From Deltaproteobacteria bacterium (GTDB lineage: Bacteria > Desulfobacterota > BSN033 > WVXP01), in NCBI GenBank assembly GCA_019308905.1, contig JAFDHF010000003.1, positions 10,282 through 74,281 on the forward strand: a stretch of 64,000 nucleotides of DNA. The letters run 5' to 3'. The position numbers and the translations under genes are program-made. The notes beneath the pieces are model-generated. The model was not told where the DNA came from, searched no databases, and saw nothing but the letters and a program-made list of their open reading frames with translations. Every line of letters starts with the position of its first letter. The first letter of the stretch is position 1. Shown piece by piece: positions 6,362 through 56,701 of the stretch.

Positions 6362-7204
6362 ATGGCACTTCGTATCAACCACAACGTAATGGCTCTCAAT
6401 TCCTACCGGCACCTGAGCATCACCCAGGGCAAGCTGTCCAAGTCGATCGAGAAGCTCTCGTCTGGTCTCAGGATCGTCCGGGCAGCCGATGACGCCGCAG
6501 GCCTCGCGATTTCCGAGAAGATGCGGGCCGACATCCGCGGTTTCAATCAAGCGGTTCGGAATGCCAACGACGGTGTGAGCATGCTCCAGACCGCTGAAGG
6601 GGCTCTGAACGAGATCAGTGGCATGCTGACCCGAATGAGGGAGCTTGCCGAGCAGGCGGCAACGGGTACCGTGGGGACGAGCCAGAAGGGAACCCTGGAT
6701 CAGGAATTCCAGGCCCTGGTGAGCGAGATCAACCGGATCGCCGACGCTACGGAGTTCAACGGCACCAAGCTGATCAACGGTGCTCTCTCTTCCGGGTCCG
6801 CCACCGCGGCGACCTTCCAGATCGGTATCGGCAACAACTCGAGCACAGACAGGTTGAGCATCGGCATCAGCGGCATGCACGCGGCATCCATCGGCCTCAG
6901 CGGCATCTCCATAAGCGCCACCGCCAATGCTCTGACCGCTCTGGCGGCCGTCGACACGGCTATTGCCAATGTGGCCAGCCAGCGAGGCGATATCGGTGCG
7001 GTTCAGAACAGGCTCGAGAGCACCATAGCCAACCTCAATATCTCGGCAGAGAACCTGACGGCGGCCGAGTCTCAGATCCGTGATGTGGACATGGCGCTCG
7101 AGATGGCCAATTTCACCAAGAATCAGATCATGACCCAGGCTGGAACAGCCATGTTGGCCCAGGCGAACCTGGCCAACCAGTCGGTTCTGACGCTTCTTGG
7201 TTAA
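6362..7204 (+). CDS. fliC: Flagellin (short, 280 aa)
   Basis: MALRINHNVMALNSYRHLSITQGKLSKSIEKLSSGLRIVRAADDAAGLAISEKM... N-terminus and LLG C-terminus are flagellin D0/D1. AGGAGG RBS upstream. There is no hypervariable domain. The central segment is Ser/Thr/Ala-rich. Confidence 0.95.
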   Translation: MALRINHNVMALNSYRHLSITQGKLSKSIEKLSSGLRIVRAADDAAGLAISEKMRADIRGFNQAVRNANDGVSMLQTAEGALNEISGMLTRMRELAEQAATGTVGTSQKGTLDQEFQALVSEINRIADATEFNGTKLINGALSSGSATAATFQIGIGNNSSTDRLSIGISGMHAASIGLSGISISATANALTALAAVDTAIANVASQRGDIGAVQNRLESTIANLNISAENLTAAESQIRDVDMALEMANFTKNQIMTQAGTAMLAQANLANQSVLTLLG

Positions 7205-7215
7205 TCGGTATCGAG

Positions 7216-7245
7216 ATGCCTGGAGGGGAGTTCTCCTCCAGGCAT
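7216..7245 (+). terminator. Stem-loop immediately downstream of fliC
   Basis: ATGCCTGGAGG-ggagttct-CCTCCAGGCAT: a perfect 11-bp stem starting 12 nt after the fliC stop. There is no obvious U-tract. Confidence 0.5.
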
Positions 7246-7264
7246 TACCGCCGAGAGGTGAACC

Positions 7265-7642
7265 ATGAAGCCCTTTGATGGTATTGGATCCATAGAAGCT
7301 TCCTCAGTTCAGTCCGTGGAGGGCTACCCCTCTCAGGAACGGGGAAAGACCCCCCAGGTGGCCGGGCCTGAAAGGGCGACCCGGGACGCAGAGGCGTTGA
7401 ATGAGAGGAGACAGGCCGAGAGGGAGCAGGCAAGGAGGATCGCCGACCATCTGAACCGCACGAGCCGCGTCTTTGACAGGAGAATCCACTTCGAGGTACC
7501 GTCTGACAGCAGGGAAGTGATCGTGAAAATCGTCGACCGTGAGACAGGGCATGTCATCCGTCAGATTCCGCCGGCCGAACTCGTGAAACTGGCAAAACAG
7601 ATGGACGAGATCTGTGAGACCATCTTCAGTTCCAAGCTGTAG
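7265..7642 (+). CDS. flaG: Flagellar protein FlaG
   Basis: C-terminal ...REVIVKIVDRETGHVIRQIPPAELVKLAKQMDEI matches the FlaG family. Position between fliC and fliD is conserved. Confidence 0.75.
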   Translation: MKPFDGIGSIEASSVQSVEGYPSQERGKTPQVAGPERATRDAEALNERRQAEREQARRIADHLNRTSRVFDRRIHFEVPSDSREVIVKIVDRETGHVIRQIPPAELVKLAKQMDEICETIFSSKL

Positions 7643-7664
7643 TCAAAAGGGAGAATGATCGATC

Positions 7665-9575
7665 ATGGCAACATCTACTGTGAGCGGCTTGGCTTCGGGG
7701 ATCAACTGGACGGACATAATAAGCCAGTTGATGGAAATCGAACGCCGCCCCATCACACTTCTTGAGAGCAGGAAGTCCGACTACCAGGAGAAGCTCTCCG
7801 CGTGGCAGACGATCAATACGCGTCTTTTGTCTCTCAAGAGCGAAGCCGACTCCCTGAAAACCGCCTCCGATTTTCTAGCAAAGACCGCCTCGTCCAGCGA
7901 CGAGGACATCCTTACGGTCTCCGCCACCAGCTCCGCTGTGGCAGGCAGTTACTCGGTAACGGTCAACCGGCTTGCCCAGTCCCACAAGATCGGCTCTCAA
8001 GGTTGGGAGGACGAGGACAGTACGGCTGTGGCCAGCAGCTCCGGGACCTTCACATTCTCGGTGGGGTCCGGTGACAGCGTGGAGATATCGGTGGATTCCA
8101 CCACCACCCTGCTCGATCTCAGGGATGCCATCAACGGAGCCGACGGCGGCCTCACCGCTACGATCCTCAATGACGGTTCGGCAACCAATCCTTACCGTCT
8201 GGTACTGACGGCCGACGAATCCGGAGAGGAAAATGCCATCACGATCTCAAATAACGACACTTCTCTCAACTTCAGCACAAAGAGTATCGAGACGGCCGCG
8301 GCCGACAGCGACAACACCTTTGACGGTACCGTAACCTCTTCCGGCACGTACACCGGTACGGAAAACAAGACCTATCTGATCGAGATCACCACTGGAGGGG
8401 CTCTAGGGGCAGCCAAATTCAAAGTTTCCGAGGACGGTGGAGTAACCTGGGGTGCTGCCGATGCGTACACGACCAGTGCGACCGCCACGTCGATTTTCGA
8501 CGAGCTCCACAGCACAGATCAGGGGGTGGATGTGGCCTTCGGAGCCGGAACCCAGGATTTCGCCGTGGGAGACCGCTTTACCATTGACGTATTCAACCCC
8601 ACCCTTCAGGCTGCACAGGACGCGAGCCTCGAGGTGGACAACATCAGCATGACCAAGAGCTCCAATACAATCACCGATGTGATCGAGGGAATGACCCTCA
8701 ACCTTCTCTCCGCAGATTCCAGCAGTCCGGTTTCCGTCACTGTCTCGAACGACACGTCGACGGTCATGTCCAATATCAGCGATTTTGTGGAGGCTTACAA
8801 CAGCGCCCTTTCCCTTATCGATGAGCAGTTTCAGTACGATAGCGACAACGATACTTCGGGTCCCCTCAACGGGGACGCAACTCTGCGCAATATCCAACAG
8901 CAGCTCAGGAGCATTATCAGCACATCCATCGATGGGCTCACCGGCGACTATGTGGTTCTCTCCCAGATCGGAATCAAGACCGGAAGCGACGGGCAACTCG
9001 CGATCGACGAATCTGATCTCTCTGACGCCCTTTCTGACGATTTTGTGGGGGTCAGCCGGATTTTCGTTGGTCACGGCAGCACGAGCCACGGTTCCGTCTC
9101 CTACCTCTCCCACACCGATGACACCGAGGCCGGCACTTACGATATCCGTATTTCCGGCAACACCTTGCAGTTCAGAGTGTCCGGCGGGGATACATGGTAC
9201 GATGCCCCAGAGGCGGTGGACAGTTCGGATGTTTTTACCGGGCCAGAAGACAGTCCCATGGAGGGCTTGAGAATCCAGACAGCGGCGTCGACTCCCGGCG
9301 ACTATGGGACAGTGACCATTACCCGTGGGGTGGCCGCCCAGCTGAGCAGGCAACTGGATTATCTCACCGACTCGTACACGGGTACGATTCACTACCAGGA
9401 AAAGGGCATCGAGGACCACATGGACTATCTGGACGACCGGATCGCCGATCTCGAAGTCCGGATGGACCAGATTGAGGCGAGGTACACCAGGCAGTTTTCT
9501 GTTCTGGAAGCCCTGCTCGGTCGGATGCAGAGCCAGAGTGACTGGTTGACCAACCAGGTGGTGAGATTGCGTTAG
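7665..9575 (+). CDS. fliD: Flagellar filament cap protein FliD
   Basis: MATSTVSGLASGINWTDIISQLMEIERRPITLLESRKSDYQEKLSAWQ... is a FliD N-terminus. The conserved C-terminal coiled coil is present. 636 aa. Confidence 0.9.
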   Translation: MATSTVSGLASGINWTDIISQLMEIERRPITLLESRKSDYQEKLSAWQTINTRLLSLKSEADSLKTASDFLAKTASSSDEDILTVSATSSAVAGSYSVTVNRLAQSHKIGSQGWEDEDSTAVASSSGTFTFSVGSGDSVEISVDSTTTLLDLRDAINGADGGLTATILNDGSATNPYRLVLTADESGEENAITISNNDTSLNFSTKSIETAAADSDNTFDGTVTSSGTYTGTENKTYLIEITTGGALGAAKFKVSEDGGVTWGAADAYTTSATATSIFDELHSTDQGVDVAFGAGTQDFAVGDRFTIDVFNPTLQAAQDASLEVDNISMTKSSNTITDVIEGMTLNLLSADSSSPVSVTVSNDTSTVMSNISDFVEAYNSALSLIDEQFQYDSDNDTSGPLNGDATLRNIQQQLRSIISTSIDGLTGDYVVLSQIGIKTGSDGQLAIDESDLSDALSDDFVGVSRIFVGHGSTSHGSVSYLSHTDDTEAGTYDIRISGNTLQFRVSGGDTWYDAPEAVDSSDVFTGPEDSPMEGLRIQTAASTPGDYGTVTITRGVAAQLSRQLDYLTDSYTGTIHYQEKGIEDHMDYLDDRIADLEVRMDQIEARYTRQFSVLEALLGRMQSQSDWLTNQVVRLR

Positions 9576-9586
9576 AATACCGGACA

Positions 9587-10039
9587 ATGAAGGGAGTATG
9601 TCACATGGATCTGAACTATTCCTTTACCCAGTACCAGAAGACCCGCTTTGTCACGGCGGACCAGGGCAGGCTGATTCTCATGATGTATGACGGGGCTATC
9701 CGGTTCATTGAACAGGCAAAGACGAAGATGGAAAGGGGAGACATCCCGGGCAAGGGGATTGCCATTGCAAGGGCCCAGGGTATAATTTCCGAATTGAACG
9801 GCAGCCTGAACCGAGAAAAGGGAGGCCAGTTGGCCCTTTCTCTGGAAACCCTTTATCTGTACATCAACAATCAGCTCTCCATGGCCAACCTCAAGAACAG
9901 CCAAGAACACCTGGACGACGCACTCAAGGTTATTCGGGAACTGTTGACCGGGTGGAAGGCGATTATCCAACGGCCCAACTCCCAGAGGCTCCACAGGGCA
10001 GCAAGAGATTTCAGGCCTGAGACCGCATCGGCTCTGTAG
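9587..10039 (+). CDS. fliS: Flagellin-specific chaperone FliS
   Basis: FTQYQKTRFVTADQGRLILMMYDGAIRFIEQAK...LYLYINNQL is the FliS four-helix-bundle signature. Start may be 9587 or the ATG at 9605. Confidence 0.85.
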   Translation: MKGVCHMDLNYSFTQYQKTRFVTADQGRLILMMYDGAIRFIEQAKTKMERGDIPGKGIAIARAQGIISELNGSLNREKGGQLALSLETLYLYINNQLSMANLKNSQEHLDDALKVIRELLTGWKAIIQRPNSQRLHRAARDFRPETASAL

Positions 10040-10141: not shown

Positions 10142-10147
10142 GGGTCC

Positions 10148-18842: not shown

Positions 18843-19095
18843 GACGGGGACGACATGATCGGATCTGCACCCGGCTCGGCAAGGCGTTCCGTCTTTCCGA
18901 TGTGAATGGCCATCGCTTTCCTGGAGCGAGGATTTCTCGCCTCGCGGGAGGGAGGAACGATCTTCCCAGGGGTTGTCAAGGGGCCGGCCTCGGATGTCAA
19001 TAACCCGTACGGGTGACTCTCTGCTTTTCTGATCAATTTCCTCCTCGGCCAGACTTCTTTGGCCTTCCGGTCTTCCGTGGTGAACAGCCCCCAGT

Positions 19096-19111
19096 GGCAC
19101 ACTAATTGCTT
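19096..19111 (+). promoter_or_regulatory. Sigma-54 (RpoN) -24/-12 promoter
   Basis: TGGCAC-actaa-TTGCT is an exact match to consensus TGGCAC-N5-TTGCW. It lies 42 nt upstream of the NusG-paralog start. Confidence 0.6.
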
Positions 19112-19120
19112 TTCCACTCA

Positions 19121-19135
19121 CTGAATGGACAGTTG
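19121..19135 (+). promoter_or_regulatory. Leader motif ACTGAATGGACAGTT (first of three TGAATGGA copies)
   Basis: TGAATGGA(C/T)(A/G)GT recurs at 19896-19909 and 20057-20070. GGGACGA(A/C)(G/A)TG recurs at 18847-18858, 19777-19789 and 19977-19989. Together these define three degenerate tandem units in untranslated leaders. Confidence 0.35.
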
Positions 19136-19152
19136 GGTTTCAGTCGGGCGTA

Positions 19153-19713
19153 TTGGCTATGCCGCGAAGTGTCGAGGAATATCCACGGATCAGCTTTCCT
19201 GAGGATGTGCTGGAGCACCGGGTTGACGGCGAGCTATGGTGGGTGGCTCACACCAAGAGCAGGAGGGAAAAGGCGCTTGCCGTTTTGCTGGAGAGGCAGA
19301 GAATCGGGTACTTCCTGCCCCTGATGAAAAAGCGTTACCGGAGCAGTGGCCGGGCCAGAATATCCATAGTTCCCATGTTTTCGGGATATGCCTTTTTCAA
19401 AGGTTCGAGATTGGACCGCTATCATGCTTTGAAGACCGGTCATGTTGCCAACGTTCTCGAGGTCTCTGACCAGCAGCAACTGGTCAGGGAGCTGAAGCAG
19501 ATTCAAAAGGCAATCTGTCTGGATGCCCCGGTTGAACCCTTCCCTTTTGTGAAGCAGGGAAACAGGGTGAGGGTGGTTGATGGACCCTTCATGGGGCTCG
19601 AAGGGGTCATTGAGAGGCGCAAGAGGTCGGACCGGCTGATCCTGTCTGTCGATACCATCAGACGGTCAGTCGCCCTCGAAATCGACGCGGATAGTGTCGA
19701 ACCGGTTTCCTGA
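19153..19713 (+). CDS. NusG-paralog transcription antiterminator (UpxY/LoaP/TaA-like; NGN + KOW)
   Basis: NGN-type N-terminus (WWVAHTKSRREKALAVLLERQRIGYFLPL...). KOW-like C-terminus (VRVVDGPFMGLEGVIER). 186 aa is too short for housekeeping NusG, and the gene sits at the head of a polysaccharide-type locus. Confidence 0.7.
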   Translation: MAMPRSVEEYPRISFPEDVLEHRVDGELWWVAHTKSRREKALAVLLERQRIGYFLPLMKKRYRSSGRARISIVPMFSGYAFFKGSRLDRYHALKTGHVANVLEVSDQQQLVRELKQIQKAICLDAPVEPFPFVKQGNRVRVVDGPFMGLEGVIERRKRSDRLILSVDTIRRSVALEIDADSVEPVS

Positions 19714-20086
19714 GAACCACCTTCCACGATCCATCGATGCCTACAACGCAAGGGTTTTGACAAACTCTGACATCGAAGGGGACGAAGTGCAGCCAGGCAG
19801 TGCGTGGTGGTATCGAAAGATGGGCCGCAGGGCACCTTTCTTCTCAGCCAAAGGGGCTCAAGTGGGACCTGATTCCTGCCGATAATGACCATATAGTGAA
19901 TGGACGGTCGGCTGTCCATCTCCAGTACGATCTCAGAATTTCTCCCGCGGACTGCAACACCCAAAGGTACAGCGAAAGGGACGAAGTGTGTTCCCCCGGC
20001 GCCGTTAGGAACGGTATTGTCGACCGAGACATCTCTCTTTCCAGGGTAACCATGTAGTGAATGGATAGTCTCTTCAAGGAAGCGAA

Positions 20087-20707
20087 ATGATAAACGGAGA
20101 ATCGAGATTTTTCGTACCCAGCAAGCTCCTGAGGACTCTGCATGTTTTGACCGAGATAGGGCGGCAACCCGACATCAGCCAGCACCAGCTTGCGTTGCGG
20201 GCCAGACTGAGCAGCTCGCAAATCAACAACTACGTCAAAGAACTGAAGGCCAAGGGCCTGGTCAATACCAAGGGCAATACGAACCGGACGATGCGCTATC
20301 TCCTGACTCCTGAAGGGCATCGGACGAGATCTTCGCTGCTGGTGGCATACTCGGTGGATGTGATTCAGCTTTACTCCCGGGTGAAGAGGGAATTCGCGGC
20401 AAAATTGCAGCAGATCTTCGACGAGGGATTGGCCAGGGTCATTCTCTTTGGGGCTGCAGAAACCGGGGAGTTGGCTTTGACCGCCTCGAGGGAAACTGAT
20501 CTGGACGTCATCGGTATTTCCGACAACGACCCGCTGAAACACGGTAAACCCTTCGGAGATCTGAGGATCATCCCTCCTTCGGAAATAGAGGGTTTGAACC
20601 CGGATGGAATCGTCATTACTTCCTTTGGACGGTTGGGAGAAATCCTCGAGAGCCTGCGGTTCTTGGAGAAAAAGGGGATAGCCATGAGGAGCCTCACTGA
20701 TGAATAG
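20087..20707 (+). CDS. Winged-helix regulator with C-terminal Rossmann-like (PglD/NeuD-N-like, Rex-like architecture) domain
   Basis: N-terminus is MarR/wHTH-like (ISQHQLALRARLSSSQINNYVKELKAKGLV). C-terminus RVILFGAAETGELAL...DVIGISDNDPLKHGKPFGDLRIIP...DGIVITS resembles the NeuD/PglD N-terminal nucleotide-binding fold. Confidence 0.55.
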   Translation: MINGESRFFVPSKLLRTLHVLTEIGRQPDISQHQLALRARLSSSQINNYVKELKAKGLVNTKGNTNRTMRYLLTPEGHRTRSSLLVAYSVDVIQLYSRVKREFAAKLQQIFDEGLARVILFGAAETGELALTASRETDLDVIGISDNDPLKHGKPFGDLRIIPPSEIEGLNPDGIVITSFGRLGEILESLRFLEKKGIAMRSLTDE

Positions 20708-20749
20708 ACACTGCCCGGAAGAGCACCCCGGGGTGACAGGAAAGAGGCC

Positions 20750-22276
20750 ATGAAGGGAATGGACAAGATTAGAGTTTTTGTAATGGATTGCGACGGCGTC
20801 CTTACGGACGGGACGATTTATTACGGCAAAGACGGGGAGAGCCTGAGGAAGTTCAACACGAGGGACGGCATGGCGATCGAATTACTCCGGCGACACAATG
20901 TCCGGACTGCCCTCGTTTCCGGCGAGGACTCTGCCGCCATCTCGCAGAGGGCTGAAAAGCTTCGGATCGACAGGATATGGCTGGGGGTGAAGGACAAGAA
21001 AGGGGTATTGCGAGAGCTGGAGAGAACCTTCGATGTTTGTGCAGAAGAGATTGCCTACATCGGTGACGACATCAATGACATAGAGCTCATGAAATCAGTC
21101 GGCTTCCCCATTGCCGTAGCCGATGCCAGCCCCAAAGTCAAGAATGTGGCGACCTATGTCACCAGGGCGGCCGGGGGCCGTGGCGCGGTTCGGGAGGCGA
21201 TCGAACTCCTCCTGGATGAGAGGGCGAAGAAGGCCATCGATGTGGCGGGTCGTCTGATCGGTGAATCGCAACCGTGCTTTCTGATAGCCGAAATCGGAAA
21301 CAACCACCAAGGAGAGGTCGAACTGGCCAGGACATTGATCGACATATCCGGCGAGGCGGGAGTGGACGCGGTCAAATTCCAAAAGAGAGACAATCGAACC
21401 CTCTTGACCCGGGAGGGGTTTCACAAATCCTACGGGGGAACCCATAGCTTCGGCAGGACCTACGGCCAACACCGGGAATATCTGGAACTGAGCAAGGATG
21501 ATTTCGCCTCTCTGAAGGAATACGCCGAATCCAAAGGTCTCATATTCTTCTCGTCGGTCTGGGACGAAAAGAGTGTGGATGTCCTGGAATCGATCGGTGT
21601 TGCCCTCTATAAGATTCCCTCTGCCGATCTCACCAATATCAGGCTCGTGGAGAAGGTCGCCGAGATCGGGAAGCCTACCATACTCTCCACGGGCATGAGC
21701 TTCCTCCATGAGATCGACTCCGCTGTGCACCTCTTTCTCAAGAGGAACGAAAACCTCATCCTGATGCACTGTGTAAGCGTCTATCCTCATCCACCGGCCC
21801 TGGCGAACATGAGAGTCATCGAGACCCTGAGACAGCGGTATCATCTCCCGGTTGGGTATTCTTCGCACGAGGAGGGTATTCTCGTGACCAGCGCCGCTCC
21901 GCTCCTCGGTGCTGTTGCGATAGAGAAGCACGTTACCCTGGACCGGAATATGAGAGGGAGTGACCACAGGGCCTCGATCGAAAAGGAGGAACTGGTCAGG
22001 ATGGTGAGCCTGATCCGCCTCTACGACAAGGCTCGGGGGGATGGAATCAAGACTCTCCTGCCCGATGAGATTGAATCGAGAAAAAAGCTCGGCAAAAGCA
22101 TCGTTGCCAAAAGGGACATCGAGAAGGGTGAGGTACTCAACTGGAGGAACATCACCTACAGATGCGCCAACAACGGGATGTACACCCTGGATTTGAAGGA
22201 CGTCCTTGGCAAGGTCAGCTCTTGCAACATCAAGCGTGACGAGTTGATAAGCGAAAGGGTGATCGCCAATCCATGA
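20750..22276 (+). CDS. Bifunctional KdsC-type HAD phosphatase :: NeuB-family nonulosonate synthase (with SAF domain)
   Basis: Residues 1-165 match KDO-8-P phosphatase (VMDCDGVLTDG...GDDINDIELMK...TRAAGGRGAVREAIELLL). The remainder matches NeuB/PseI (CFLIAEIGNNHQG...VDAVKFQK..., C-terminal SAF). Confidence 0.85.
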   Translation: MKGMDKIRVFVMDCDGVLTDGTIYYGKDGESLRKFNTRDGMAIELLRRHNVRTALVSGEDSAAISQRAEKLRIDRIWLGVKDKKGVLRELERTFDVCAEEIAYIGDDINDIELMKSVGFPIAVADASPKVKNVATYVTRAAGGRGAVREAIELLLDERAKKAIDVAGRLIGESQPCFLIAEIGNNHQGEVELARTLIDISGEAGVDAVKFQKRDNRTLLTREGFHKSYGGTHSFGRTYGQHREYLELSKDDFASLKEYAESKGLIFFSSVWDEKSVDVLESIGVALYKIPSADLTNIRLVEKVAEIGKPTILSTGMSFLHEIDSAVHLFLKRNENLILMHCVSVYPHPPALANMRVIETLRQRYHLPVGYSSHEEGILVTSAAPLLGAVAIEKHVTLDRNMRGSDHRASIEKEELVRMVSLIRLYDKARGDGIKTLLPDEIESRKKLGKSIVAKRDIEKGEVLNWRNITYRCANNGMYTLDLKDVLGKVSSCNIKRDELISERVIANP

Positions 22277-23229
22277 AGATCATTCACTTTGCCATCAACG
22301 ATCCAGCAGGAGCCGCCATCGCTTTCGTGAAGGCCATCAACCGGTACACTCCCCACCGGGCAAGGCTCGTCACCTGGGAGATTCGGTACAACTTCATGTT
22401 CGAAAAGGATTTTCACATTCCCTGGATGGACAAACAGGCCCTCGAGTTTCTCTATGAAGAGATGTGGGAGGCGGACATCTTCCACTTCCACATGCTTATC
22501 GACGAAACCCATCCTGTGGGCGGGTTCAGAATCTCCGATTTTGCCAATTGTAAGAAAATCCTCCACCACCACCACGGCCATCCGGATTTCAGAGCGAATC
22601 CCGACAAGTACAGGAAGAAGTACCGAAATCCGAAAAGAAGGGTCTTAGCCAGTACTCCCGACCTACTGCACCTTATCCCTGAGGCGCTGTGGCAACCCAA
22701 TCTGGTTCCGATCAACGACCATTCCTACCTGCCTGCGTGCGATTCCAACAACGGCGTCGTGAAGGTAGGCCAGGCACCGACGCGGAAGGATCTGAAGAAC
22801 ACGGCGGAGTTGGTTCGGGTCGCGAGCAGGCTCCGATCGGCCGTAGGCCAGTCAAGGCTGGAACTGGAGATCATCGAGAATTGCCTCCACAGGGATTGCC
22901 TGGAGAGAAAGAAGCGGTGCGACATCATCTTTGATCACATGCAGGGTTACTACGGGGTCTCATCCTTGGAATCCCTGAGCCAGGGCAAACCTGTGATAGC
23001 GGGCTTGGACGATTGGAACGCGGGATGGATCAAAAAGTTCGCGGAGTCAAGTGATCTGCCCTGGGTTTTGGCCCGGAATCAGGACGAACTCGAGGGACAG
23101 CTCTTGAGGCTTGTAGAAGACCCGGACCTGCGCGTTGAAATCGGCTGCAAAAGCAGGAGGTTCATGGAGGAACACTGGACCGAAAAGCAGGTGCTCAAAC
23201 CCCTTTTGGAGGTCTATGCATCTCTTTGA
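22273..23229 (+). CDS. Hypothetical protein, GT-B-like glycosyltransferase fold (possible HP-motif transferase)
   Basis: No strong family signature. Rossmann-like halves; His-rich HHHHGHP segment. ATGA overlap with the upstream synthase gene. Confidence 0.4.
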   Translation: MKIIHFAINDPAGAAIAFVKAINRYTPHRARLVTWEIRYNFMFEKDFHIPWMDKQALEFLYEEMWEADIFHFHMLIDETHPVGGFRISDFANCKKILHHHHGHPDFRANPDKYRKKYRNPKRRVLASTPDLLHLIPEALWQPNLVPINDHSYLPACDSNNGVVKVGQAPTRKDLKNTAELVRVASRLRSAVGQSRLELEIIENCLHRDCLERKKRCDIIFDHMQGYYGVSSLESLSQGKPVIAGLDDWNAGWIKKFAESSDLPWVLARNQDELEGQLLRLVEDPDLRVEIGCKSRRFMEEHWTEKQVLKPLLEVYASL

Positions 23230-23348
23230 GAGGGCGTTATCAAGAGGTTGAAGGCCTTGGTCCAGCACGGAGATTTCACCGCTTATCGGAATCCACCTCT
23301 TCTGGCAGTGAATTCCTCACCTCACCACTTTGCATAGGAGTCGATGCG

Positions 23349-24032
23349 ATGGCAACGCCCCGCCGAGTCACAGAGAGCGAGGAATACACCTTTACCGATC
23401 TCGAGAAACACTTTACAGAAACACTCTGTGTAAGAGACTATGGAGCCCGGTACCTTTCCTATCTGGCCGACCTGATGGTACGTGTTGATCTGCAAGCGGT
23501 AGAAAACATCACGGATGTTCTCGTCGAGGCCGGAGAGCGGGGCAACACGATTTATTCCATTGGAAACGGCGGCAGTGCTGCCACGGCCTCCCACTTTGTC
23601 AATGACATCACCATCGGCACAAGAACCAGGGGATCGAAACCCATCAGAGCTTACAGCTTGGCCGACAACCTGCCGGCTCTGACCGCCCTTGCCAACGATG
23701 AGGGATACCCCAGTGTTTTTGTCAGGCAGTTAGAAGGTCTGTTGCAACCCGGAGATGTGGTCATCGCTTTTTCGGTGAGTGGGAATTCGAGAAATATCCT
23801 GGAAGCCTTGAGATATGCCAAGCAGCACCTAGCCATCACAATCGGTTTGACAGGGTTTGACGGTGGCCGGATGCTCGAAATCGCGGATATGACTCTGCAT
23901 ATTCCGACTCGCCCCGGCGAGTATGGACCGGCAGAGGATCTGTTCACGGTTCTGACCCATCTCATTTGCAGCTACATAAGGCTCGACCGGGAGGCTGCTC
24001 TGCGGCCTTTACAGAGTGAGCAGAGGCATTGA
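23349..24032 (+). CDS. SIS-domain sugar-phosphate isomerase, GmhA (sedoheptulose-7-P isomerase)-like
   Basis: IYSIGNGGSAATASHFVNDI and VIAFSVSGNSRNILEAL are GmhA-type SIS motifs. ATG 23349 with AGGAG 8 nt upstream. The ORF-track start at 23226 is less likely. Confidence 0.75.
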   Translation: MATPRRVTESEEYTFTDLEKHFTETLCVRDYGARYLSYLADLMVRVDLQAVENITDVLVEAGERGNTIYSIGNGGSAATASHFVNDITIGTRTRGSKPIRAYSLADNLPALTALANDEGYPSVFVRQLEGLLQPGDVVIAFSVSGNSRNILEALRYAKQHLAITIGLTGFDGGRMLEIADMTLHIPTRPGEYGPAEDLFTVLTHLICSYIRLDREAALRPLQSEQRH

Positions 24033-24126
24033 GCACATCCGGGTTTTCCGAGCTTGTCCCTTGCCCTGATCAAGGTCCGCGAGTGGTCGATAGCCATGTA
24101 CTGGCCTGGATAAGAGGAATCCTCCC

Positions 24127-24774
24127 GTGAATATTGTTTCGTTCATTCCCGCCAGAGGCGCCTCCAAGGGGGTCCCGGGAAAGAACAAGAAGATTCTCGG
24201 CAACAAGCCTCTTGTCGCCTGGACGGTGGAGGATGCCTTGGAGAGTGAACTCATCGATAGGGTCGTCGTGTCGACCGAGGACGAGGAGATTTCGAGAATC
24301 GCAAGAAAGTGGGGGGCAGAAGTCATCCCCAGGCCCAAAGAACTTGCCACCGACACGGCGGACCTCCAGGATGCCGTCGAGTTCACCCTGAACAGGTTGC
24401 GGGAGAACGGTTATGACCCGGACTACATGGTTGCGATGTTTCCGACTTCGCCTTTCAGGAGAAGAGGGCTTGTCGACTCGGCCATCAGGATGGCCTTGGA
24501 CAATCCCGACATCTGCTATGTCCATTCCCTGAAGCGTGTCGATTTCGATTTGGAGGATCTCGTCGATTCCGATGGGACTCCTTACATGTCCCATGAGGTC
24601 GCAAGGGATCTCAGGGGTTGCGTCTTTTCCACGAAGATGAACTTTGGGGTCGAGAGGATGCGTGAGGGGCCGGCGGGGAGGCGTGGGATCATCCTGCTCC
24701 CGGACGAATCGATAGACATCGATCTGCCCCGAGACTGGGAAGCCGCCGAAAGGGCATGTGCGAGATGGCTGTGA
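24127..24774 (+). CDS. NeuA-like acylneuraminate (nonulosonate) cytidylyltransferase (CMP-sugar synthetase)
   Basis: IVSFIPARGASKGVPGKNKKILGNKPLVAWTVEDA is the CTP_transf_3 signature. GTG start. Confidence 0.8.
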   Translation: MNIVSFIPARGASKGVPGKNKKILGNKPLVAWTVEDALESELIDRVVVSTEDEEISRIARKWGAEVIPRPKELATDTADLQDAVEFTLNRLRENGYDPDYMVAMFPTSPFRRRGLVDSAIRMALDNPDICYVHSLKRVDFDLEDLVDSDGTPYMSHEVARDLRGCVFSTKMNFGVERMREGPAGRRGIILLPDESIDIDLPRDWEAAERACARWL

Positions 24775-25214
24775 AGCGGATTGAGATCGATTTCGGGAAA
24801 ATAGGGAAACCCCTCAGGCTCCGCGTCAGGCAATGGGTCAGGCAGCAAGGGATCACCCCCCCTTGTCTACTCGTCGGCAGGGGTGTCGCCATCCCGGAAG
24901 AGACGCTGAACGATTGGGAGTCATGGGGATACAATCTCATGTCAGCCGTCCCGGCTCCTGATCACCCCTTTCTTTTTGCCAAGCAGGACCTCGAGACAGG
25001 AGAGATCTCATTCCCCTTCAGAAAAGACATCGGGAAGGGAAAGAGACGACAGGATCTGGAGCCTGTCTACCTCTTCGTAGAGGGCTTTGCCTTCATTCAC
25101 GAGATAGAAGCGCCTTTCAGACCTCTTGTTGTGTCCGGCGAGGTGCCGGCACCTGAAGATTACGGTTGCCAGGAGATTCACCTCCCCGCGCTCCTAGAAA
25201 TGGAAGCGGTGTAA
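24756..25214 (+). CDS. Hypothetical protein (152 aa)
   Basis: Fills the NeuA-AsnB gap. No recognisable motif; coding status uncertain. Confidence 0.35.
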   Translation: MCEMAVKRIEIDFGKIGKPLRLRVRQWVRQQGITPPCLLVGRGVAIPEETLNDWESWGYNLMSAVPAPDHPFLFAKQDLETGEISFPFRKDIGKGKRRQDLEPVYLFVEGFAFIHEIEAPFRPLVVSGEVPAPEDYGCQEIHLPALLEMEAV

Positions 25215-25217
25215 TAC

Positions 25218-27098
25218 ATGTGTGGAATTTGCGGCTATACGAGATCCCACAGGGATATTCCCGAGGGAATCATAGACGATATGAAGGATGCCCTTGTTCA
25301 CCGGGGACCGGACGAGGAGGGTACCTATGCGGATGACCAAATCGTTCTCGGCCATAGGAGGCTTTCCATCATAGACCTCGAAGGGGGGCGCCAGCCCATG
25401 GCCAGCGAGGACGGAAGGATCATCGTGGTATGCAATGGAGAGATATACAACTATGTGGAACTGAGAAAGTTCCTTGAACAGCGGGGACATCGGTTTTCCA
25501 GTCGATGCGATACGGAAATCCTCGTCCATCTTTTCGAAGAATACGGGATTGACATGGTCAGGCGGCTCACCGGGATGTTCGCAATGGCCGTCTGGGACTC
25601 CGGGGACCGGGCCCTCGTGCTCGTCCGGGACCGCTTCGGTCAGAAACCCCTGTACTATGCGGAAAGGGACGGGCAACTGATCTTCGCCTCGGAACTCGGA
25701 TCCCTTGTCAAACATCCCGGGATCGAGAAGAAGATCGACAAGACCGCGTTGAGCCGGTACCTCGCATACCAGTATGTTCCGGCCCCGTTCTCCATATACG
25801 AGGGGGTCTACAAGTTGGACGCCGGATCGTGTCTGGAATGGAAGCGTGGGAAAGTACGGACTTTCCGTTACTGGGATTTCCCGGTGGGTCGTTCCAACTT
25901 CGACGGGACGATCGACGAGTGCTGCTCGGAACTGTCGAGGCTGCTCGGTGATTCTGTCCGCCGGAGATTGATAAGCGATGTGCCGATCGGCGTCTTCCTC
26001 AGCGGCGGGGTCGATTCTACCGCGATCGTGGCCCTTATGGCTCGGCACATGCCTCCGCAGGCGATCAAGACCTTTTCGATCGGTTTTACCGAAAAGAGGT
26101 TTGATGAGTCGGCCTATGCCCGGTCCGTGGCCCGGTACTTCGGCACCGCCCACGAAGAGGAGATCCTGGAAGGCACGGATCTGATAGACATGCTCCCGAA
26201 GGTGGCCGAAGCCTATGACGAGCCCTTTGCAGATCCTTCTGCCATACCGACCTATCTGCTTTCGCGGTTTGCACGCCGTCACGTTATCGTGGCCCTGGGC
26301 GGCGACGGGGGAGACGAGCTCTTTGCGGGGTACGAGGCTTTTATCGGTCACCGGATTGCCAGGCTTTTCGAGTACCTACCGGACTCTCTCAGGAGAGGGG
26401 TTTTCCCCAGGTTGGCCGGCTTGTTCCCACCCTCTGACGGAAACATGAGTTTTCCCTTTGCGGCCAGACGGTTCTTCAGCCACCTCGAAGCCGACTCCGT
26501 GAGGAGGAACCAGCTTTGGCTGGGTGCGTTCGACTATGATTCGCAGAAAGAGCTGCTGGCGGGGGAGTTTTCGTCCGGTCTGGCCGATCCTTTCGACGAC
26601 GAGCGCAGGGACAACGAACGACTTCATTACCTCGATGCAGTGGCTTACTCCTACATCAGGACCTACCTCCAGGAAGACATACTCACCAAGGTCGACAGAG
26701 CGAGCATGGCCCACGGCCTCGAGGTGAGGGCCCCTTTCCTCGACCACGAATTCGGTGAGTTTGCCGGGTCGATACCCATGAGATGGAAGCTAAAGGGCTT
26801 GACGCCCAAGTACCTTCTCAAACGTGCAATGAGCGGTCTAATCCCGGGGGAGGTCCTGAAACGAAGGAAGAGGGGCTTTGCAATTCCAAGGTCCAAGTGG
26901 CTCAGGGAAGATCTGGGCCAGTGTCTCAGGGACTTGTTCACCGAGGAGAGGGTCAAGGAACAGGGCACATTCTCTTATACCTATGTTAGAAGACTCATGG
27001 AAGAGCATTTTGACCGGAAAAGCGATCATCAGAAGGAACTATGGACGCTTCTGATGTTCGAAATGTGGCGCGGCAAGCACGGCGGGAGCATGTCTTGA
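25218..27098 (+). CDS. Asparagine synthetase family glutamine amidotransferase (AsnB-like; likely sugar amidotransferase)
   Basis: MCGICGY... Ntn Cys2, then the full AsnB glutaminase domain and the synthetase domain (SGGVDSTAI). Confidence 0.9.
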   Translation: MCGICGYTRSHRDIPEGIIDDMKDALVHRGPDEEGTYADDQIVLGHRRLSIIDLEGGRQPMASEDGRIIVVCNGEIYNYVELRKFLEQRGHRFSSRCDTEILVHLFEEYGIDMVRRLTGMFAMAVWDSGDRALVLVRDRFGQKPLYYAERDGQLIFASELGSLVKHPGIEKKIDKTALSRYLAYQYVPAPFSIYEGVYKLDAGSCLEWKRGKVRTFRYWDFPVGRSNFDGTIDECCSELSRLLGDSVRRRLISDVPIGVFLSGGVDSTAIVALMARHMPPQAIKTFSIGFTEKRFDESAYARSVARYFGTAHEEEILEGTDLIDMLPKVAEAYDEPFADPSAIPTYLLSRFARRHVIVALGGDGGDELFAGYEAFIGHRIARLFEYLPDSLRRGVFPRLAGLFPPSDGNMSFPFAARRFFSHLEADSVRRNQLWLGAFDYDSQKELLAGEFSSGLADPFDDERRDNERLHYLDAVAYSYIRTYLQEDILTKVDRASMAHGLEVRAPFLDHEFGEFAGSIPMRWKLKGLTPKYLLKRAMSGLIPGEVLKRRKRGFAIPRSKWLREDLGQCLRDLFTEERVKEQGTFSYTYVRRLMEEHFDRKSDHQKELWTLLMFEMWRGKHGGSMS

Positions 27099-56685: not shown

Positions 56686-56701
56686 GAAGGGATAGCGAGC
56701 C

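What the first reader, a model, noticed from the sequence alone, without database searches (positions are those of the whole stretch)
20750..24774. Unusual nonulosonate pathway: KdsC-phosphatase::NeuB-synthase fusion flanked by a GmhA-like heptose-phosphate isomerase and a NeuA-like CMP-transferase
Bacterial NeuB/PseI/LegI enzymes normally condense PEP with a non-phosphorylated sugar. A covalently fused KdsC-type HAD phosphatase implies a phosphorylated aldose substrate and a phosphorylated ulosonic product, as in the KDN-9-P or Neu5Ac-9-P routes or KDO-8-P logic.

The nearest sugar-phosphate-generating enzyme in the operon is a GmhA-type SIS isomerase. That family makes D-glycero-D-manno-heptose-7-P from sedoheptulose-7-P. 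If the heptose-7-P is the acceptor, the product would be a 10-carbon ulosonic acid, possibly a previously undescribed class. Otherwise the product is KDN-like. The NeuA-like gene then makes the CMP-activated donor.

No UDP-GlcNAc 4,6-dehydratase, aminotransferase or NeuC-type genes are present. That argues against classical pseudaminic or legionaminic acid.
Basis: inference. Interest (0 to 1): 0.8.

Follow-up and report, generated by a model that had tools for sequence, protein, structure and literature searches.

The report
Fused sialic-acid-type synthase/phosphatase in flagellar sugar island
A sulfate-reducer-type bacterium carries, in the sugar-decoration gene island next to its flagellar genes, a rare single protein that joins an animal-type (phospho-sugar-using) sialic-acid synthase to the phosphatase for the next step; it most likely makes the known nine-carbon sugar Kdn, not a new ten-carbon sugar.

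Summary
Window 20750-22276 encodes an intact KdsC-type HAD phosphatase fused to a NeuB-SAF synthase. All lie in one + strand gene run inside a ~50 kb island that directly follows the flagellar genes.

The synthase half is of the phospho-sugar class. It aligns almost gaplessly with human NANS and shares the extended beta2-alpha2 loop motif with NANS and the Prymnesium Kdn-9-P synthase. It groups with them and with every other HAD-fused NeuB.

The ten-carbon idea is not supported. Close fusion homologues (58-74% identity) occur without any SIS gene. The SIS belongs to a distinct GmhA-like subfamily. In all 7 other loci examined it sits immediately next to a nucleotidyltransferase-PfkB kinase, whichever NeuB type is present, which points to a separate NDP-heptose-like branch.

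The most likely product is Kdn from mannose-6-P. This is a new architectural variant of a known pathway, in a context not described in the papers searched. Interest is moderate.

The parts
19153..19713 (+). NusG-paralogue (UpxY/RfaH/LoaP-like) transcription antiterminator at the head of the cassette
   Evidence: It matches Pfam NusG+KOW and NCBIfam UpxY at 77.5 bits, below cutoff. Homologues lie next to the fusion in L001 and L005.
20087..20707 (+). Winged-helix (MarR-like) regulator with a C-terminal C2185-like_N / Methyltransf_14-like domain. It is the conserved first gene of the module.
   Evidence: Searches give the domains. The same protein type lies directly upstream of the NeuB gene in about 50 of 80 genome loci and in all the metagenome loci.
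20750..21235 (+). N-terminal KdsC-type (C0, HAD-IIIA) phosphatase domain of the fusion protein (aa 1-162)
   Evidence: TIGR01670 scores 165.5 bits, above the 107 cutoff. The KdsC equivalog (153.7 against 208) and the Bacteroides Kdn-9-P phosphatase equivalog (136.9 against 180) both fall below cutoff. PDB relatives are KdsC proteins and BT1713. The HAD motifs DCDGVLTDG, VSGE, KDK and GDDIND are readable in the sequence.
21242..22276 (+). C-terminal NeuB + SAF nonulosonate-9-phosphate synthase domain of the fusion (aa 165-508), NANS-like
   Evidence: PF03102 scores 259.7 bits and SAF 27 bits. It is 37% identical to human NANS over 345 aa with 2 gaps. It is 47-49% identical with 0 gaps to stand-alone prokaryotic NANS-like enzymes. 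It has the loop motif SFGRTYGQHREYLEL.
22273..23229 (+). 318-aa GT-B / GT4-like glycosyltransferase with an invariant HHHHGH motif. It is the conserved partner of the NeuB gene, and its start overlaps the stop codon of the fusion gene.
   Evidence: It has no Pfam hit. It has 957 homologues at about 55% identity. The AlphaFold2 model has pLDDT 93.5. Foldseek hits are PimA, MshA and BshA. Relatives were found in 102 matched stretches of the species-representative genome collection, mostly Desulfobacterota.
23349..24032 (+). GmhA-like SIS sugar-phosphate isomerase of a distinct subfamily
   Evidence: SIS_2 scores 63 bits. gmhA TIGR00441 scores 108 bits, below the 209 cutoff. It is 30% identical to E. 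coli GmhA. The subfamily signature is D65, E172, D173, T58 and V/A120 in 120 of 120 relatives.
24127..24774 (+). NeuA/CMAS-like CMP-nonulosonate synthetase (215 aa, divergent C-terminal half)
   Evidence: CTP_transf_3 scores 82 bits. PseF scores 102 bits, below cutoff. Best PDB matches are NeuA 9ftb and CMAS enzymes, with KdsB far weaker. Orthologues follow the GT4-like gene in L009 and L011-L013 and occur in L090.
24756..25214 (+). 152-aa ORF of unknown function, probably a real gene
   Evidence: It has no Pfam or NCBIfam match and no homologue in the 88 loci held at the time. Its codon-position GC pattern (0.63/0.39/0.65) matches neighbouring genes.
25218..27098 (+). Glutamine-dependent asparagine-synthase-like amidotransferase (tailoring enzyme candidate)
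   Evidence: Asn_synthase scores 356 bits. The XrtA/PEP-CTERM amidotransferase model scores 627 bits, below cutoff. Homologues recur in other loci that carry the GT4-like gene.
6362..10039 (+). Flagellin, FliD and FliS genes immediately upstream of the island (context)
   Evidence: The same flagellin-FliD-FliS neighbourhood precedes the fusion homologue in L001.
55009..62035 (+). Two GT9 (heptosyltransferase-family) genes and two Maf_flag10_N + DUF3880 + Glyco_trans_1_2 genes at the distal end of the island (context; candidate transferases)

Best explanation
**What it is.** The cassette is the sugar-donor module of a flagellin glycosylation island in a Desulfobacterota-type MAG.

**Proposed pathway.**
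1. The fusion protein is a bifunctional nonulosonate-9-phosphate synthase/phosphatase. Its NANS-like NeuB-SAF half condenses PEP with a 6-phospho-hexose. This is most likely mannose-6-P from central metabolism, giving Kdn-9-P.
2. Its KdsC-type HAD half removes the 9-phosphate.
3. The NeuA-like enzyme converts the free acid to the CMP-sugar.
4. The conserved GT4-like protein and the island's Maf-like/TPR glycosyltransferases use or elaborate it on flagellin. The methyltransferases, radical-SAM enzymes, sulfotransferase and amidotransferase are candidates for tailoring.

**Role of the SIS protein.** It is probably not the substrate supplier for the synthase. It belongs to a distinct GmhA-like subfamily that elsewhere works with a nucleotidyltransferase-PfkB kinase, making an NDP-heptose-like sugar. 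Here it has lost that partner. It either feeds a housekeeping heptose pathway for the two GT9 enzymes or has an unresolved role.

**Shown versus inferred.**
- Shown: domain content, intact motifs, class membership of the synthase, gene neighbourhoods.
- Inferred: identity of the sugar (Kdn), flagellin as the target, the role of the SIS protein.
For: **Domain calls and intact catalytic motifs**
-.

**Phospho-sugar class of the synthase half**
- It is 37% identical to human NANS with 2 gaps over 345 aa. The NANS sequence was verified as SIAS_HUMAN.
- phmmer bit scores against the NeuB, SpsE and PseI proteins of known structure are 135-165, with 107 for a further SpsE-like entry.
- The extended beta2-alpha2 loop motif S-[FWY]-G-x-TYG-x-H-R/K-x-x-LE is shared with human NANS and with the experimentally Man-6-P-specific Prymnesium Kdn-9-P synthase. 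It is absent from the N. meningitidis, Leptospira, B. subtilis and C. jejuni enzymes. PMC8208679 cites this loop as favouring the phosphorylated substrate.
- N. meningitidis E134 is D and R314 is C here, as in eukaryotic NANS, which has D and V (PMC8208679).
- In a neighbour-joining tree the domain falls in a clade with human NANS, Prymnesium Kdn9PS and all HAD-fused forms. Bootstrap is 84% for the broad clade.

**Repeated fusion of the two enzymes**
- HAD-NeuB, NeuB-HAD and CMP-transferase-HAD-NeuB architectures all exist.

**Kdn rather than Neu5Ac**
- No ManNAc-6-P-supplying gene appears in the fully covered island.
- Position 42 (human numbering) is Ile. Human NANS has Met and Prymnesium has Leu, whereas mouse and rat have Thr.

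**SIS independent of the synthase**
- Fusion homologues in L001, L004 and L005 have GT9/GT2 genes, not SIS, after the GT4-like gene.
- SIS orthologues are next to CTP_transf_like-PfkB in 7 of 7 other loci. These loci carry three different NeuB types.
- The synthase aligns without gaps to relatives from SIS-less loci.

**Flagellar context**
- for the window, and L001.
Against: - No enzyme assay exists for any member of this fusion clade.
- The HAD half scores below the curated cutoffs of both the KdsC and the Bacteroides Kdn-9-P phosphatase equivalogs. Its substrate is therefore not fixed by sequence.
- The Kdn-specific gatekeeper Arg196 of CMP-Kdn synthetase (PMC12934254) could not be located, because the C-terminal half of the window enzyme does not align.
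- The SIS gene is intact and sits in the same gene run between the GT4-like gene and the cytidylyltransferase.
- The island contains no kinase/nucleotidyltransferase to use the SIS product. Locally, the synthase is the only evident consumer of an aldose phosphate.
- The four activities present (isomerase, PEP-condensing synthase, KdsC-type phosphatase, cytidylyltransferase) mirror the complete Kdo pathway logic.
- The tree is a crude neighbour-joining tree without BT1714. The narrow NANS-loop clade has only 53% bootstrap.
Confidence: 0.5

Rival explanations
1. The SIS enzyme converts sedoheptulose-7-P (or a related ketose phosphate) to an aldoheptose-7-P. The NANS-like domain condenses that with PEP to a 3-deoxy-deculosonate-10-phosphate. 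The HAD domain dephosphorylates it and the NeuA-like enzyme activates it as a CMP-sugar. The product would be a ten-carbon ulosonic acid.
For: - All four activities of a Kdo-like route are contiguous in one gene run.
- The island has no other consumer for the SIS product.
- This is the only SIS locus of 8 that lacks the nucleotidyltransferase-PfkB partner, and it is also the only one in which the NeuB is fused to a phosphatase.
- The kinase/nucleotidyltransferase logic of the partner module elsewhere fits heptose-type substrates rather than hexose (inference from the known GmhA-HldE pathway).
- No natural deculosonic acid is described in the searched library.
Against: - Fusion homologues at 58-74% identity work without a local SIS gene.
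- The synthase has the same loop length as, and aligns without gaps to, SIS-less relatives, and almost without gaps to hexose-6-P-using NANS.
- The SIS + nucleotidyltransferase-PfkB module combines with three NeuB types. In L027 it lies 9 kb away from the NeuB gene, so it behaves as an independent module.
- The SIS subfamily differs from true GmhA at catalytic and metal positions, so even heptose-7-P as its product is unproven.
Confidence: 0.1
2. The product is Kdn, and the SIS enzyme is part of the same pathway. It would act as a GmhA-type (manno-forming) phosphomannose isomerase that converts fructose-6-P to mannose-6-P for the synthase.
For: - GmhA chemistry generates the manno configuration at C2. 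Fructose-6-P is the one-carbon-shorter analogue of sedoheptulose-7-P (established stereochemistry; inference).
- The SIS subfamily has an altered active-site signature, so a substrate other than sedoheptulose-7-P is plausible.
- Gene order places it between the synthase and the cytidylyltransferase.
Against: - The orthologues' constant partner is a kinase + nucleotidyltransferase. This makes little sense for mannose-6-P, which bacteria activate through a mutase (established knowledge).
- E65 to D shortens the catalytic base, whereas a shorter substrate would be expected to need the opposite (inference).
- Fusion homologues lack the SIS gene.
Confidence: 0.1
3. The fusion makes Neu5Ac, or another 9-phospho-nonulosonate, from ManNAc-6-P or another modified hexose-6-P supplied by genes outside the island.
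For: - Human NANS, the closest characterised relative by score, uses ManNAc-6-P (PMC8208679).
- The best PDB matches of the cytidylyltransferase are Neu5Ac-type NeuA/CMAS enzymes.
- The NCBIfam NeuB_NnaB model is the top synthase hit (311 bits).
Against: - No NeuC/GNE, NanK or NanE-type gene was found in the island.
- Position 42 is hydrophobic, as in Kdn-competent enzymes.
- The NeuB_NnaB score is below its 399.65 cutoff.
Confidence: 0.15
4. The HAD domain is an ordinary Kdo-8-P phosphatase for LPS that happens to be fused to an unrelated NeuB. The two halves would not act in sequence.
For: The HAD half scores slightly higher against KdsC models and structures than against the Bacteroides Kdn-9-P phosphatase.
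Against: - HAD/NeuB fusions occur in three different domain architectures, and all have synthases of the same phospho-sugar clade.
- There is no KdsA, KdsB or KdsD in the island.
- The location is a flagellar glycosylation island.
Confidence: 0.03

Closest known systems
Bacteroides thetaiotaomicron Kdn pathway (Kdn-9-P synthase BT1714, Kdn-9-P phosphatase BT1713, CMP-Kdn synthetase; Wang et al. 2008, as cited in PMC6200933) and the Prymnesium parvum Kdn-9-P synthase / CMP-Kdn synthetase (PMC6200933, PMC12934254)
   Same: - The three-step logic is the same: PEP + hexose-6-P gives ulosonate-9-P, then the free acid, then the CMP-sugar.
- The phosphatase is the same KdsC-type C0 HAD fold (PDB 3e81 hit).
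- The synthase loop motif matches that of the Prymnesium enzyme.
   Different: - Here the synthase and phosphatase are one polypeptide.
- The synthase keeps a SAF domain, which the 312-aa Prymnesium enzyme lacks.
- The HAD half fails the curated Bacteroides Kdn-9-P phosphatase cutoff.
- The genes lie in a flagellar glycosylation island with a GT4-like partner and a GmhA-like gene.
- The BT1714 sequence itself could not be compared.
Animal sialic acid pathway: NANS (Neu5Ac-9-P/Kdn-9-P synthase), NANP phosphatase, CMAS
   Same: - It is the closest experimentally characterised synthase compared here: 37% identity, 2 gaps, the shared beta2-alpha2 loop, D at N. meningitidis E134 and a non-Arg residue at R314.
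- A KdsC-like HAD domain fused to a pathway enzyme is also seen in mouse CMAS (PDB 3ewi hit).
   Different: - The animal phosphatase NANP is a separate protein, and the HAD domain is fused to CMAS rather than to the synthase.
- There is no GNE-type supply of ManNAc-6-P here.
Kdo pathway (KdsD isomerase, KdsA synthase, KdsC phosphatase, KdsB cytidylyltransferase)
   Same: - The four-step logic is identical if the SIS protein participates.
- The phosphatase belongs to the KdsC subfamily model.
   Different: - The synthase is NeuB-type, not KdsA/DAHP-synthase-type.
- The isomerase is GmhA-like, not SIS+CBS KdsD (KdsD hit only E=0.003).
- The cytidylyltransferase is NeuA-like, not KdsB.
GmhA / HldE NDP-heptose pathway (and, from memory only, the LmbN octulose-8-P isomerase branch of lincomycin biosynthesis)
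   Same: - The SIS protein has the GmhA fold and keeps most binding motifs: GNGGS, ND, SxSGNS and the two His.
- Its orthologues sit next to a kinase + nucleotidyltransferase, as GmhA does with HldE.
   Different: - It scores below the GmhA equivalog cutoff.
- It has invariant E65D, Q172E, E173D and T120V/A changes.
- The partner enzyme has the reverse domain order of HldE.
- That partner is absent from this window.
Pse/Leg flagellin glycosylation islands with Maf transferases (Campylobacter, Aeromonas; PMC4065374)
   Same: - The NulO synthase and CMP-transferase genes lie beside flagellin/FliD/FliS.
- Proteins with the Maf N-terminal domain are present.
   Different: - There is no dehydratase, aminotransferase or acetyltransferase set.
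- The synthase is of the phospho-sugar class rather than PseI/LegI.

Membership tests
NeuB-family nonulosonate synthases (PF03102) | NeuB TIM-barrel domain plus C-terminal SAF domain | tested here: met
   PF03102 scores 259.7 bits over the full model (1-241). SAF scores 27.3 bits.
NeuB-family nonulosonate synthases (PF03102) | Conserved catalytic/metal motifs (EIGxNH, KFQK, GxSxH, E-x-H, GxDH) | tested here: met
   AEIGNNH, KFQK, GYSSHE, IEKHVT and GSDH all align with the N. meningitidis and C. jejuni enzymes.
Bacterial Neu5Ac synthase NeuB/NnaB (TIGR03569 equivalog) | Score above the curated equivalog cutoff | tested here: not met
   It scores 311.2 bits against a cutoff of 399.65. PseI scores 221 against 340.
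Phospho-sugar-dependent synthases (NANS / Kdn-9-P synthase class) | Extended beta2-alpha2 loop implicated in binding the sugar phosphate | tested here: met
   The loop THSFGRTYGQHREYLEL aligns with human KHSWGKTYGEHKRHLEF and Prymnesium RNSYGDTYGAHREFLEF. It is gapped or unrelated in N. meningitidis NeuB, Leptospira NeuB, SpsE and PseI. The role of the loop is as cited in PMC8208679.
Phospho-sugar-dependent synthases (NANS / Kdn-9-P synthase class) | Phylogenetic grouping with characterised members | tested here: met
   In the neighbour-joining tree the broad clade with human NANS, Prymnesium Kdn9PS and all HAD fusions has 84% bootstrap. The narrow clade has 53%. BT1714 was not included.
Phospho-sugar-dependent synthases (NANS / Kdn-9-P synthase class) | Activity on mannose-6-P or ManNAc-6-P and not on the free sugars | not testable with these tools
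   This needs an enzyme assay.
KdsC-type C0 HAD phosphatases (TIGR01670 subfamily) | Score above the subfamily cutoff and four intact HAD motifs | tested here: met
   It scores 165.5 bits against a cutoff of 106.95. The motifs were read in the sequence.
Kdn-9-P phosphatase, Bacteroides type (NF058599 equivalog) | Score above the curated cutoff | tested here: not met
   It scores 136.9 bits against a cutoff of 180. The KdsC equivalog PRK09484 scores 153.7 against 208, also not met. Specificity residues described for BT1713 could not be checked because the papers are not held.
GmhA, sedoheptulose-7-P isomerase (TIGR00441 equivalog) | Score above the curated cutoff | tested here: not met
   It scores 108.3 bits against a cutoff of 209.45.
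GmhA, sedoheptulose-7-P isomerase (TIGR00441 equivalog) | Catalytic Glu65/His180 and metal ligands His61, Glu65, Gln172, His180 (E. coli numbering; roles recalled from the GmhA structural literature) | tested here: not met
   H61 and H180 are kept. E65 is D, Q172 is E and E173 is D, invariant in 120 of 120 subfamily members. The best PDB hit is the B. pseudomallei entry 5ltz, which has Glu at the aligned position.
GmhA, sedoheptulose-7-P isomerase (TIGR00441 equivalog) | Operates with a heptose kinase / nucleotidyltransferase (and GmhB phosphatase) | tested here: not met
   No PfkB/CTP_transf_like gene or remnant is present in the window. The island is fully contained in the window. Such a partner is present in 7 of 7 other SIS loci.
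CMP-nonulosonate synthetases (CTP_transf_3; NeuA/CMAS) | Cytidylyltransferase domain closer to NeuA/CMAS than to KdsB | tested here: met
   PF02348 scores 82 bits. NeuA 9ftb scores 81.9 bits against KdsB at 33 bits or less.
CMP-Kdn synthetase (Kdn-specific CMAS) | Gatekeeper Arg at the position of PpNeuA Arg196 (PMC12934254) | tested here: inconclusive
   The match to 9t4z covers only residues 2-117. The C-terminal half is too divergent to align.
Classical pseudaminic / legionaminic acid pathways | NDP-HexNAc 4,6-dehydratase, aminotransferase, N-acetyltransferase and hydrolase/2-epimerase genes with the synthase | tested here: not met
   None was found in the Pfam scans of the island's + strand ORFs of at least 140 aa that do not lie inside a longer ORF.
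GT4 retaining glycosyltransferases (for the 318-aa protein) | GT-B fold with a C-terminal nucleotide-sugar-binding domain | tested here: met
   The model has pLDDT 93.5. Foldseek finds PimA, MshA, BshA and GlgM at E of 1e-9 to 1e-12. Pfam GT1 is only faint in a few homologues.

The most novel reading that the evidence does not exclude
The intact GmhA-like isomerase has lost the kinase/nucleotidyltransferase partner it has in every other locus examined. It may deliver its aldose-phosphate product (a heptose-7-P or a related higher sugar phosphate) directly to the phospho-sugar-type synthase. The fusion protein and the NeuA-like enzyme would then make a CMP-activated ten-carbon (or otherwise non-nonulosonic) 3-deoxy-2-ulosonic acid for flagellin. 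No such sugar class was found described in the searched literature.
Probability: 0.1. Interest if true: 0.85.

Novelty: new variant of a known kind. Interest (0 to 1): 0.45.

Why it matters
**If the main reading holds**
- Phospho-sugar (animal/Bacteroides-type) sialic-acid chemistry, probably Kdn, would be used for flagellar decoration in sulfate-reducing Desulfobacterota.
- The literature searches found only Pse/Leg-type sugars described on flagellins, and no report of Kdn on flagellin.
- The fusion is a natural 'Rosetta stone' that ties KdsC-type phosphatases to NANS-like synthases. It could also serve as a compact two-step biocatalyst for Kdn or sialic-acid analogues.

**Wider result from the comparative work**
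- A widespread, uncharacterised module was exposed: a winged-helix regulator, a NeuB-family synthase and a highly conserved GT4-like protein with an HHHHGH motif. It was found in 102 matched stretches of the species-representative genome collection.
- A distinct GmhA-like subfamily was also exposed. It is coupled to a reversed HldE-like enzyme and often to a split transketolase.
- Both are good targets for discovering new bacterial sugars.

Tried and rejected
- **Remnants of the SIS partner genes.** I looked for traces of the nucleotidyltransferase-PfkB, ArgZ-like or transketolase genes in the window by tblastn with the L090 proteins. None was found.
- **Unassigned island ORFs.** NCBIfam and Pfam scans of 33042-34598, 34595-36901, 44506-45165, 62058-62714 and 24756-25214 found nothing. 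No hidden kinase or nucleotidyltransferase was identified, although these ORFs remain uncharacterised.
- **Extending past the window end.** The exact-product look-up of 60266-62035 failed. Translation of the last 1.3 kb showed flagellar/regulatory genes, so the island ends inside the window.
- **Papers on phosphatase specificity.** Wang 2008 and Lu 2009 on BT1713/BT1714 are not held. A text search for KDN9P/KDO8P gave nothing usable.
- **Rfam scan.** The whole window gave no hits.
- **Promoter/terminator scan.** Window 18800-27200 gave no convincing + strand terminator inside the cassette, and counts did not differ clearly from shuffles.
- **First tree script.** It timed out and was replaced by a lighter neighbour-joining script.
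- **Ideas considered and rejected.**
  - The 318-aa protein as a PseG/NeuC-like NDP-sugar hydrolase: its best folds are GT4 transferases, with UDP-GlcNAc 2-epimerase only at rank 35.
  - The cytidylyltransferase as a frameshifted pseudogene: it aligns full-length with the L012/L013 orthologues.
  - The long TTG start of the SIS gene.

Full report
**1. What is there**

The region is a run of + strand genes.
- 19153-19713 encodes a NusG paralogue of the UpxY/RfaH/LoaP type.
- 20087-20707 encodes a MarR-like winged-helix protein with a C-terminal domain that precomputed Pfam hits on its homologues call C2185-like_N.
- 20750-22276 encodes the fusion protein.
- 22273-23229 encodes a 318-aa protein with no Pfam hit.
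- 23226/23349-24032 encodes a SIS protein.
- 24127-24774 encodes a CTP_transf_3 cytidylyltransferase.
- 24756-25214 is an unknown 152-aa ORF.
- 25218-27098 encodes an asparagine-synthase-like amidotransferase.

The fusion carries a KdsC-type HAD domain (TIGR01670, 165.5 bits against a cutoff of 107). It also carries a full NeuB domain (259.7 bits) and a SAF domain. The four HAD motifs and the NeuB catalytic motifs are intact.

The window comes from a 'Deltaproteobacteria bacterium' MAG. The fusion is identical to MBW2056233.1, which is annotated only as 'HAD-IIIA family hydrolase'.

- A gene lies between the fusion and the SIS gene.
- The SIS gene starts at ATG 23349.

**2. Context**

- The first 10 kb of the window encode FlgI, FlgN, FlgK, FlgL, FliW, flagellin, FliD and FliS.
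- From 10.1 to 62.0 kb lies a single-strand island. It holds glycosyltransferases (several with TPR domains), methyltransferases, at least seven radical-SAM enzymes and a sulfotransferase. It also holds two GT9 heptosyltransferase-family proteins and two proteins with the Maf N-terminal domain.
- Past 62 kb the genes are again flagellar or regulatory, so the whole island is in view.
- This is a flagellin glycosylation island.
- The 58%-identical fusion homologue in L001 also lies directly downstream of flagellin, FlaG, FliD, FliS and FliT.

**3. The synthase half is of the phospho-sugar class**

I recalled the human NANS sequence from memory and verified it by exact look-up as SIAS_HUMAN.
- The window domain aligns with human NANS at 37% identity over 345 residues with only two gaps.
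- phmmer bit scores against the NeuB, SpsE and PseI proteins of known structure are 135-165, with 107 for one further SpsE-like entry. Those alignments are gapped in the beta2-alpha2 region.
- That region carries the motif S-[FWY]-G-x-TYG-x-H-R/K-x-x-LE in three enzymes: the window protein, human NANS and the Prymnesium parvum Kdn-9-P synthase. I translated the Prymnesium sequence from the supplement of PMC6200933, where it was shown to use mannose-6-P and not mannose.
- PMC8208679 states that this loop favours the phosphorylated substrate in the human enzyme. It also notes that eukaryotic and archaeal enzymes have D at N. meningitidis E134, and that eukaryotic enzymes have lost R314. The window protein has D and C at those positions.
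- In a neighbour-joining tree the domain falls in a clade with human NANS, the Prymnesium enzyme, stand-alone Desulfovibrionaceae enzymes and every HAD-fused form. It lies apart from N. meningitidis NeuB, Leptospira NeuB, SpsE, PseI and the NeuB-AP_endonuc_2 fusions. Bootstrap is 84% for the broad clade and 53% for the narrow one.

**4. The fusion is rare but recurrent**

- An exhaustive HMMER search of 1.84 billion cluster representatives found one 50%-identity cluster of this exact type (representative P0004).
- It also found a handful of other clusters with HAD-NeuB, NeuB-HAD or CMP-transferase-HAD-NeuB architectures.
- Three different fusion architectures of the same two enzyme types are strong evidence that they act consecutively.
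- Some close relatives (P0005, P0006) have a degenerate HAD domain without the DxD nucleophile.

**5. Which sugar**

- The island has no NeuC/GNE, NanK or NanE-type gene, no dehydratase and no aminotransferase. The substrate should therefore be a housekeeping hexose-6-P. Mannose-6-P is the obvious one, which gives Kdn.
- At the position of human Met42 the window protein has Ile, close fusions have Ile or Met, and the Kdn-specific Prymnesium enzyme has Leu. Mouse and rat NANS have Thr.
- Hao et al. 2006, cited in PMC6200933, reported that a single mutation removes Kdn-9-P synthase activity from the human enzyme. That the mutation is M42T is from my memory.
- This is weak, single-site support.
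- The Kdn gatekeeper Arg of CMP-Kdn synthetase (PMC12934254) could not be assessed, because the C-terminal half of the window enzyme is too divergent.

**6. The SIS protein**

- It is GmhA-like: 30% identical to verified E. coli GmhA and about 35% identical to the B. pseudomallei enzyme. It scores half the GmhA equivalog cutoff.
- Its 120 closest relatives (50-67% identity) form a subfamily with invariant D65, E172 and D173, where GmhA has E65, Q172 and E173. They also have T58 and V/A120.
- I examined seven other loci with an orthologue: L006, L007, L089, L090, L091, a JGI contig and L027.
  - In all seven the SIS gene is adjacent to a 501-504-aa protein. This protein has an N-terminal CTP_transf_like domain and a C-terminal PfkB kinase domain, the reverse order of HldE. 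In six of the seven the SIS gene comes first; in L027 it follows the partner gene.
  - An ArgZ-like Rossmann protein usually comes next, and a split transketolase is often present.
  - These loci carry three different NeuB types: NeuB-SAF-AP_endonuc_2 fusions, short about 290-aa enzymes, and a NANS-type enzyme in L027. In L027 the SIS module lies 9 kb from the NeuB gene.
- The module therefore behaves as an independent NDP-heptose-like branch.
- The window is the only locus without the kinase/nucleotidyltransferase, and no remnant is present.
- Conversely, the closest fusion homologues (L001, L004, L005) have GT9 or GT2 genes, not SIS, after the 318-aa gene.
- The synthase domain aligns without a single gap to relatives from SIS-less loci.
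- Together these points argue that the synthase does not depend on the SIS product.
- They do not exclude it. Locally the synthase is the only visible consumer of an aldose phosphate. One distant SIS relative (L008) sits with a pyruvate-aldolase-type gene and a CTP_transf_3 gene instead of a kinase.

**7. The 318-aa protein**

- It belongs to a large, strongly conserved family: 957 hits at about 55% identity, with invariant HHHHGH and FDHMQGYYG motifs.
- The AlphaFold2 model (pLDDT 93.5) is a GT-B fold closest to GT4 enzymes such as PimA, MshA and BshA.
- A scan of one genome per species found 102 matched stretches that encode it, nearly all Desulfobacterota with a few Planctomycetota.
- In about 50 of the 80 loci fetched, the order regulator - NeuB-family gene - this gene is kept. 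In several loci it is followed directly by an orthologue of the window's cytidylyltransferase.
- It is thus the conserved partner of the synthase, presumably a transferase that uses or elaborates the activated sugar.

**8. Verdict**

- The finding is a real, rare architecture.
- The phosphorylated-intermediate logic is supported.
- The best reading is a Kdn-type (nine-carbon) CMP-sugar pathway for flagellin glycosylation, with a bifunctional synthase/phosphatase (confidence about 0.5).
- The ten-carbon ulosonic acid remains possible but is disfavoured by comparative genomics (about 0.1).
- Searches of the held literature found no description of this fusion, of Kdn on flagellin, of these cassettes or of natural deculosonic acids.
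- I rate it a new variant of a known kind, of moderate interest.
- Two things seen along the way are of comparable interest: the conserved regulator-NeuB-GT4-like module, and the divergent GmhA-like/reversed-HldE/transketolase cassette.

Noticed in passing
window 22273-23229; loci L009-L088: A highly conserved 316-320-aa GT4-like family has an invariant HHHHGH motif and no Pfam model. It was found in 102 matched stretches of the species-representative genome collection (mostly Desulfobacterota, some Planctomycetota). It usually lies directly after a NeuB-family gene and a winged-helix/C2185-like regulator. About 30 of the 80 loci have it without a NeuB gene within 10 kb.
   Followed up: partly
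L006, L007, L089, L090, L091 (e.g. L007:7001-14448): A recurrent cassette contains a GmhA-like SIS gene, a 504-aa CTP_transf_like(N)-PfkB(C) protein (reverse domain order of HldE) and an ArgZ-like/deoxyhypusine-synthase-like Rossmann protein. Radical-SAM genes, Gtf3_C, Methyltransf_21 and a split transketolase follow. It looks like an undescribed NDP-higher-sugar pathway. The transketolase plus isomerase plus kinase logic recalls the lincomycin octose route (from memory).
   Followed up: partly
L006:534-2429, L007:4035-5909, L090:1478-3346 and about 10 GTDB loci: NeuB-SAF is fused C-terminally to a xylose-isomerase-like TIM barrel (AP_endonuc_2), giving proteins of 620-645 aa. This is a second, more common NeuB fusion type in the same module. 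Its synthase lacks the NANS-type loop.
   Followed up: no
L003 (Mucilaginibacter pineti FNAI01000011.1), 3184-10372: A different HAD-NeuB fusion (475 aa, no SAF) sits with CTP_transf_3, a split transketolase, a class-III aminotransferase, an SDR and a fatty-acid-hydroxylase-family gene. Actinobacterial-looking triple fusions CTP_transf_3-HAD-NeuB (P0033, P0046, P0074, P0395; 683-742 aa) also exist. They may be single-protein Kdn pathways.
   Followed up: no
P0005, P0006 (L004:3111-4688): Close relatives of the fusion (58-59% identity) keep the N-terminal domain but have lost the DxD nucleophile motif. The phosphatase half is degenerate in some lineages.
   Followed up: no
window 20087-20707 and homologues upstream of NeuB in most loci: The regulator combines a MarR-like winged helix with a domain weakly similar to the NDP-sugar-binding C-terminal domain of sugar C-methyltransferases (Methyltransf_14) and to Rex. 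It may sense a sugar nucleotide.
   Followed up: no
window 33042-34598, 34595-36901, 44506-45165, 62058-62714, 24756-25214: Five ORFs (518, 768, 219, 218 and 152 aa) inside or at the edge of the island have no Pfam or NCBIfam match. Codon-position GC was checked for the 518-, 768- and 152-aa ORFs and is gene-like.
   Followed up: partly
window 28267-50998: There is an unusual concentration of radical-SAM enzymes: 28267, 37756 (SPASM), 39011 (B12-binding), 46897 (SPASM), 47903 and 49916 (SPASM). A sulfotransferase (40635), a flavin amine-oxidase-like protein (29749), a FemAB-like protein (31133) and a polysaccharide deacetylase-like protein (32040) are also present. This suggests heavy tailoring of the flagellar glycan.
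   Followed up: no
window 51056-52627; L004:632-2332; L027:6915-8339; L091:2562-4067: A fumarate-reductase/succinate-dehydrogenase-like flavoprotein (FAD_binding_2) recurs next to the regulator-NeuB module in several loci and is also present in this island.
   Followed up: no
L008 (contig_18388), 2887-12585: A 56%-identical SIS relative lies in a polysaccharide locus with an HpcH/HpaI-type aldolase, CTP_transf_3, a DHQ-synthase-like protein, a GFO/IDH/MocA oxidoreductase and a DegT aminotransferase. It has no NeuB or kinase. This may be an aldolase-based route to an aminated ulosonic acid.
   Followed up: no
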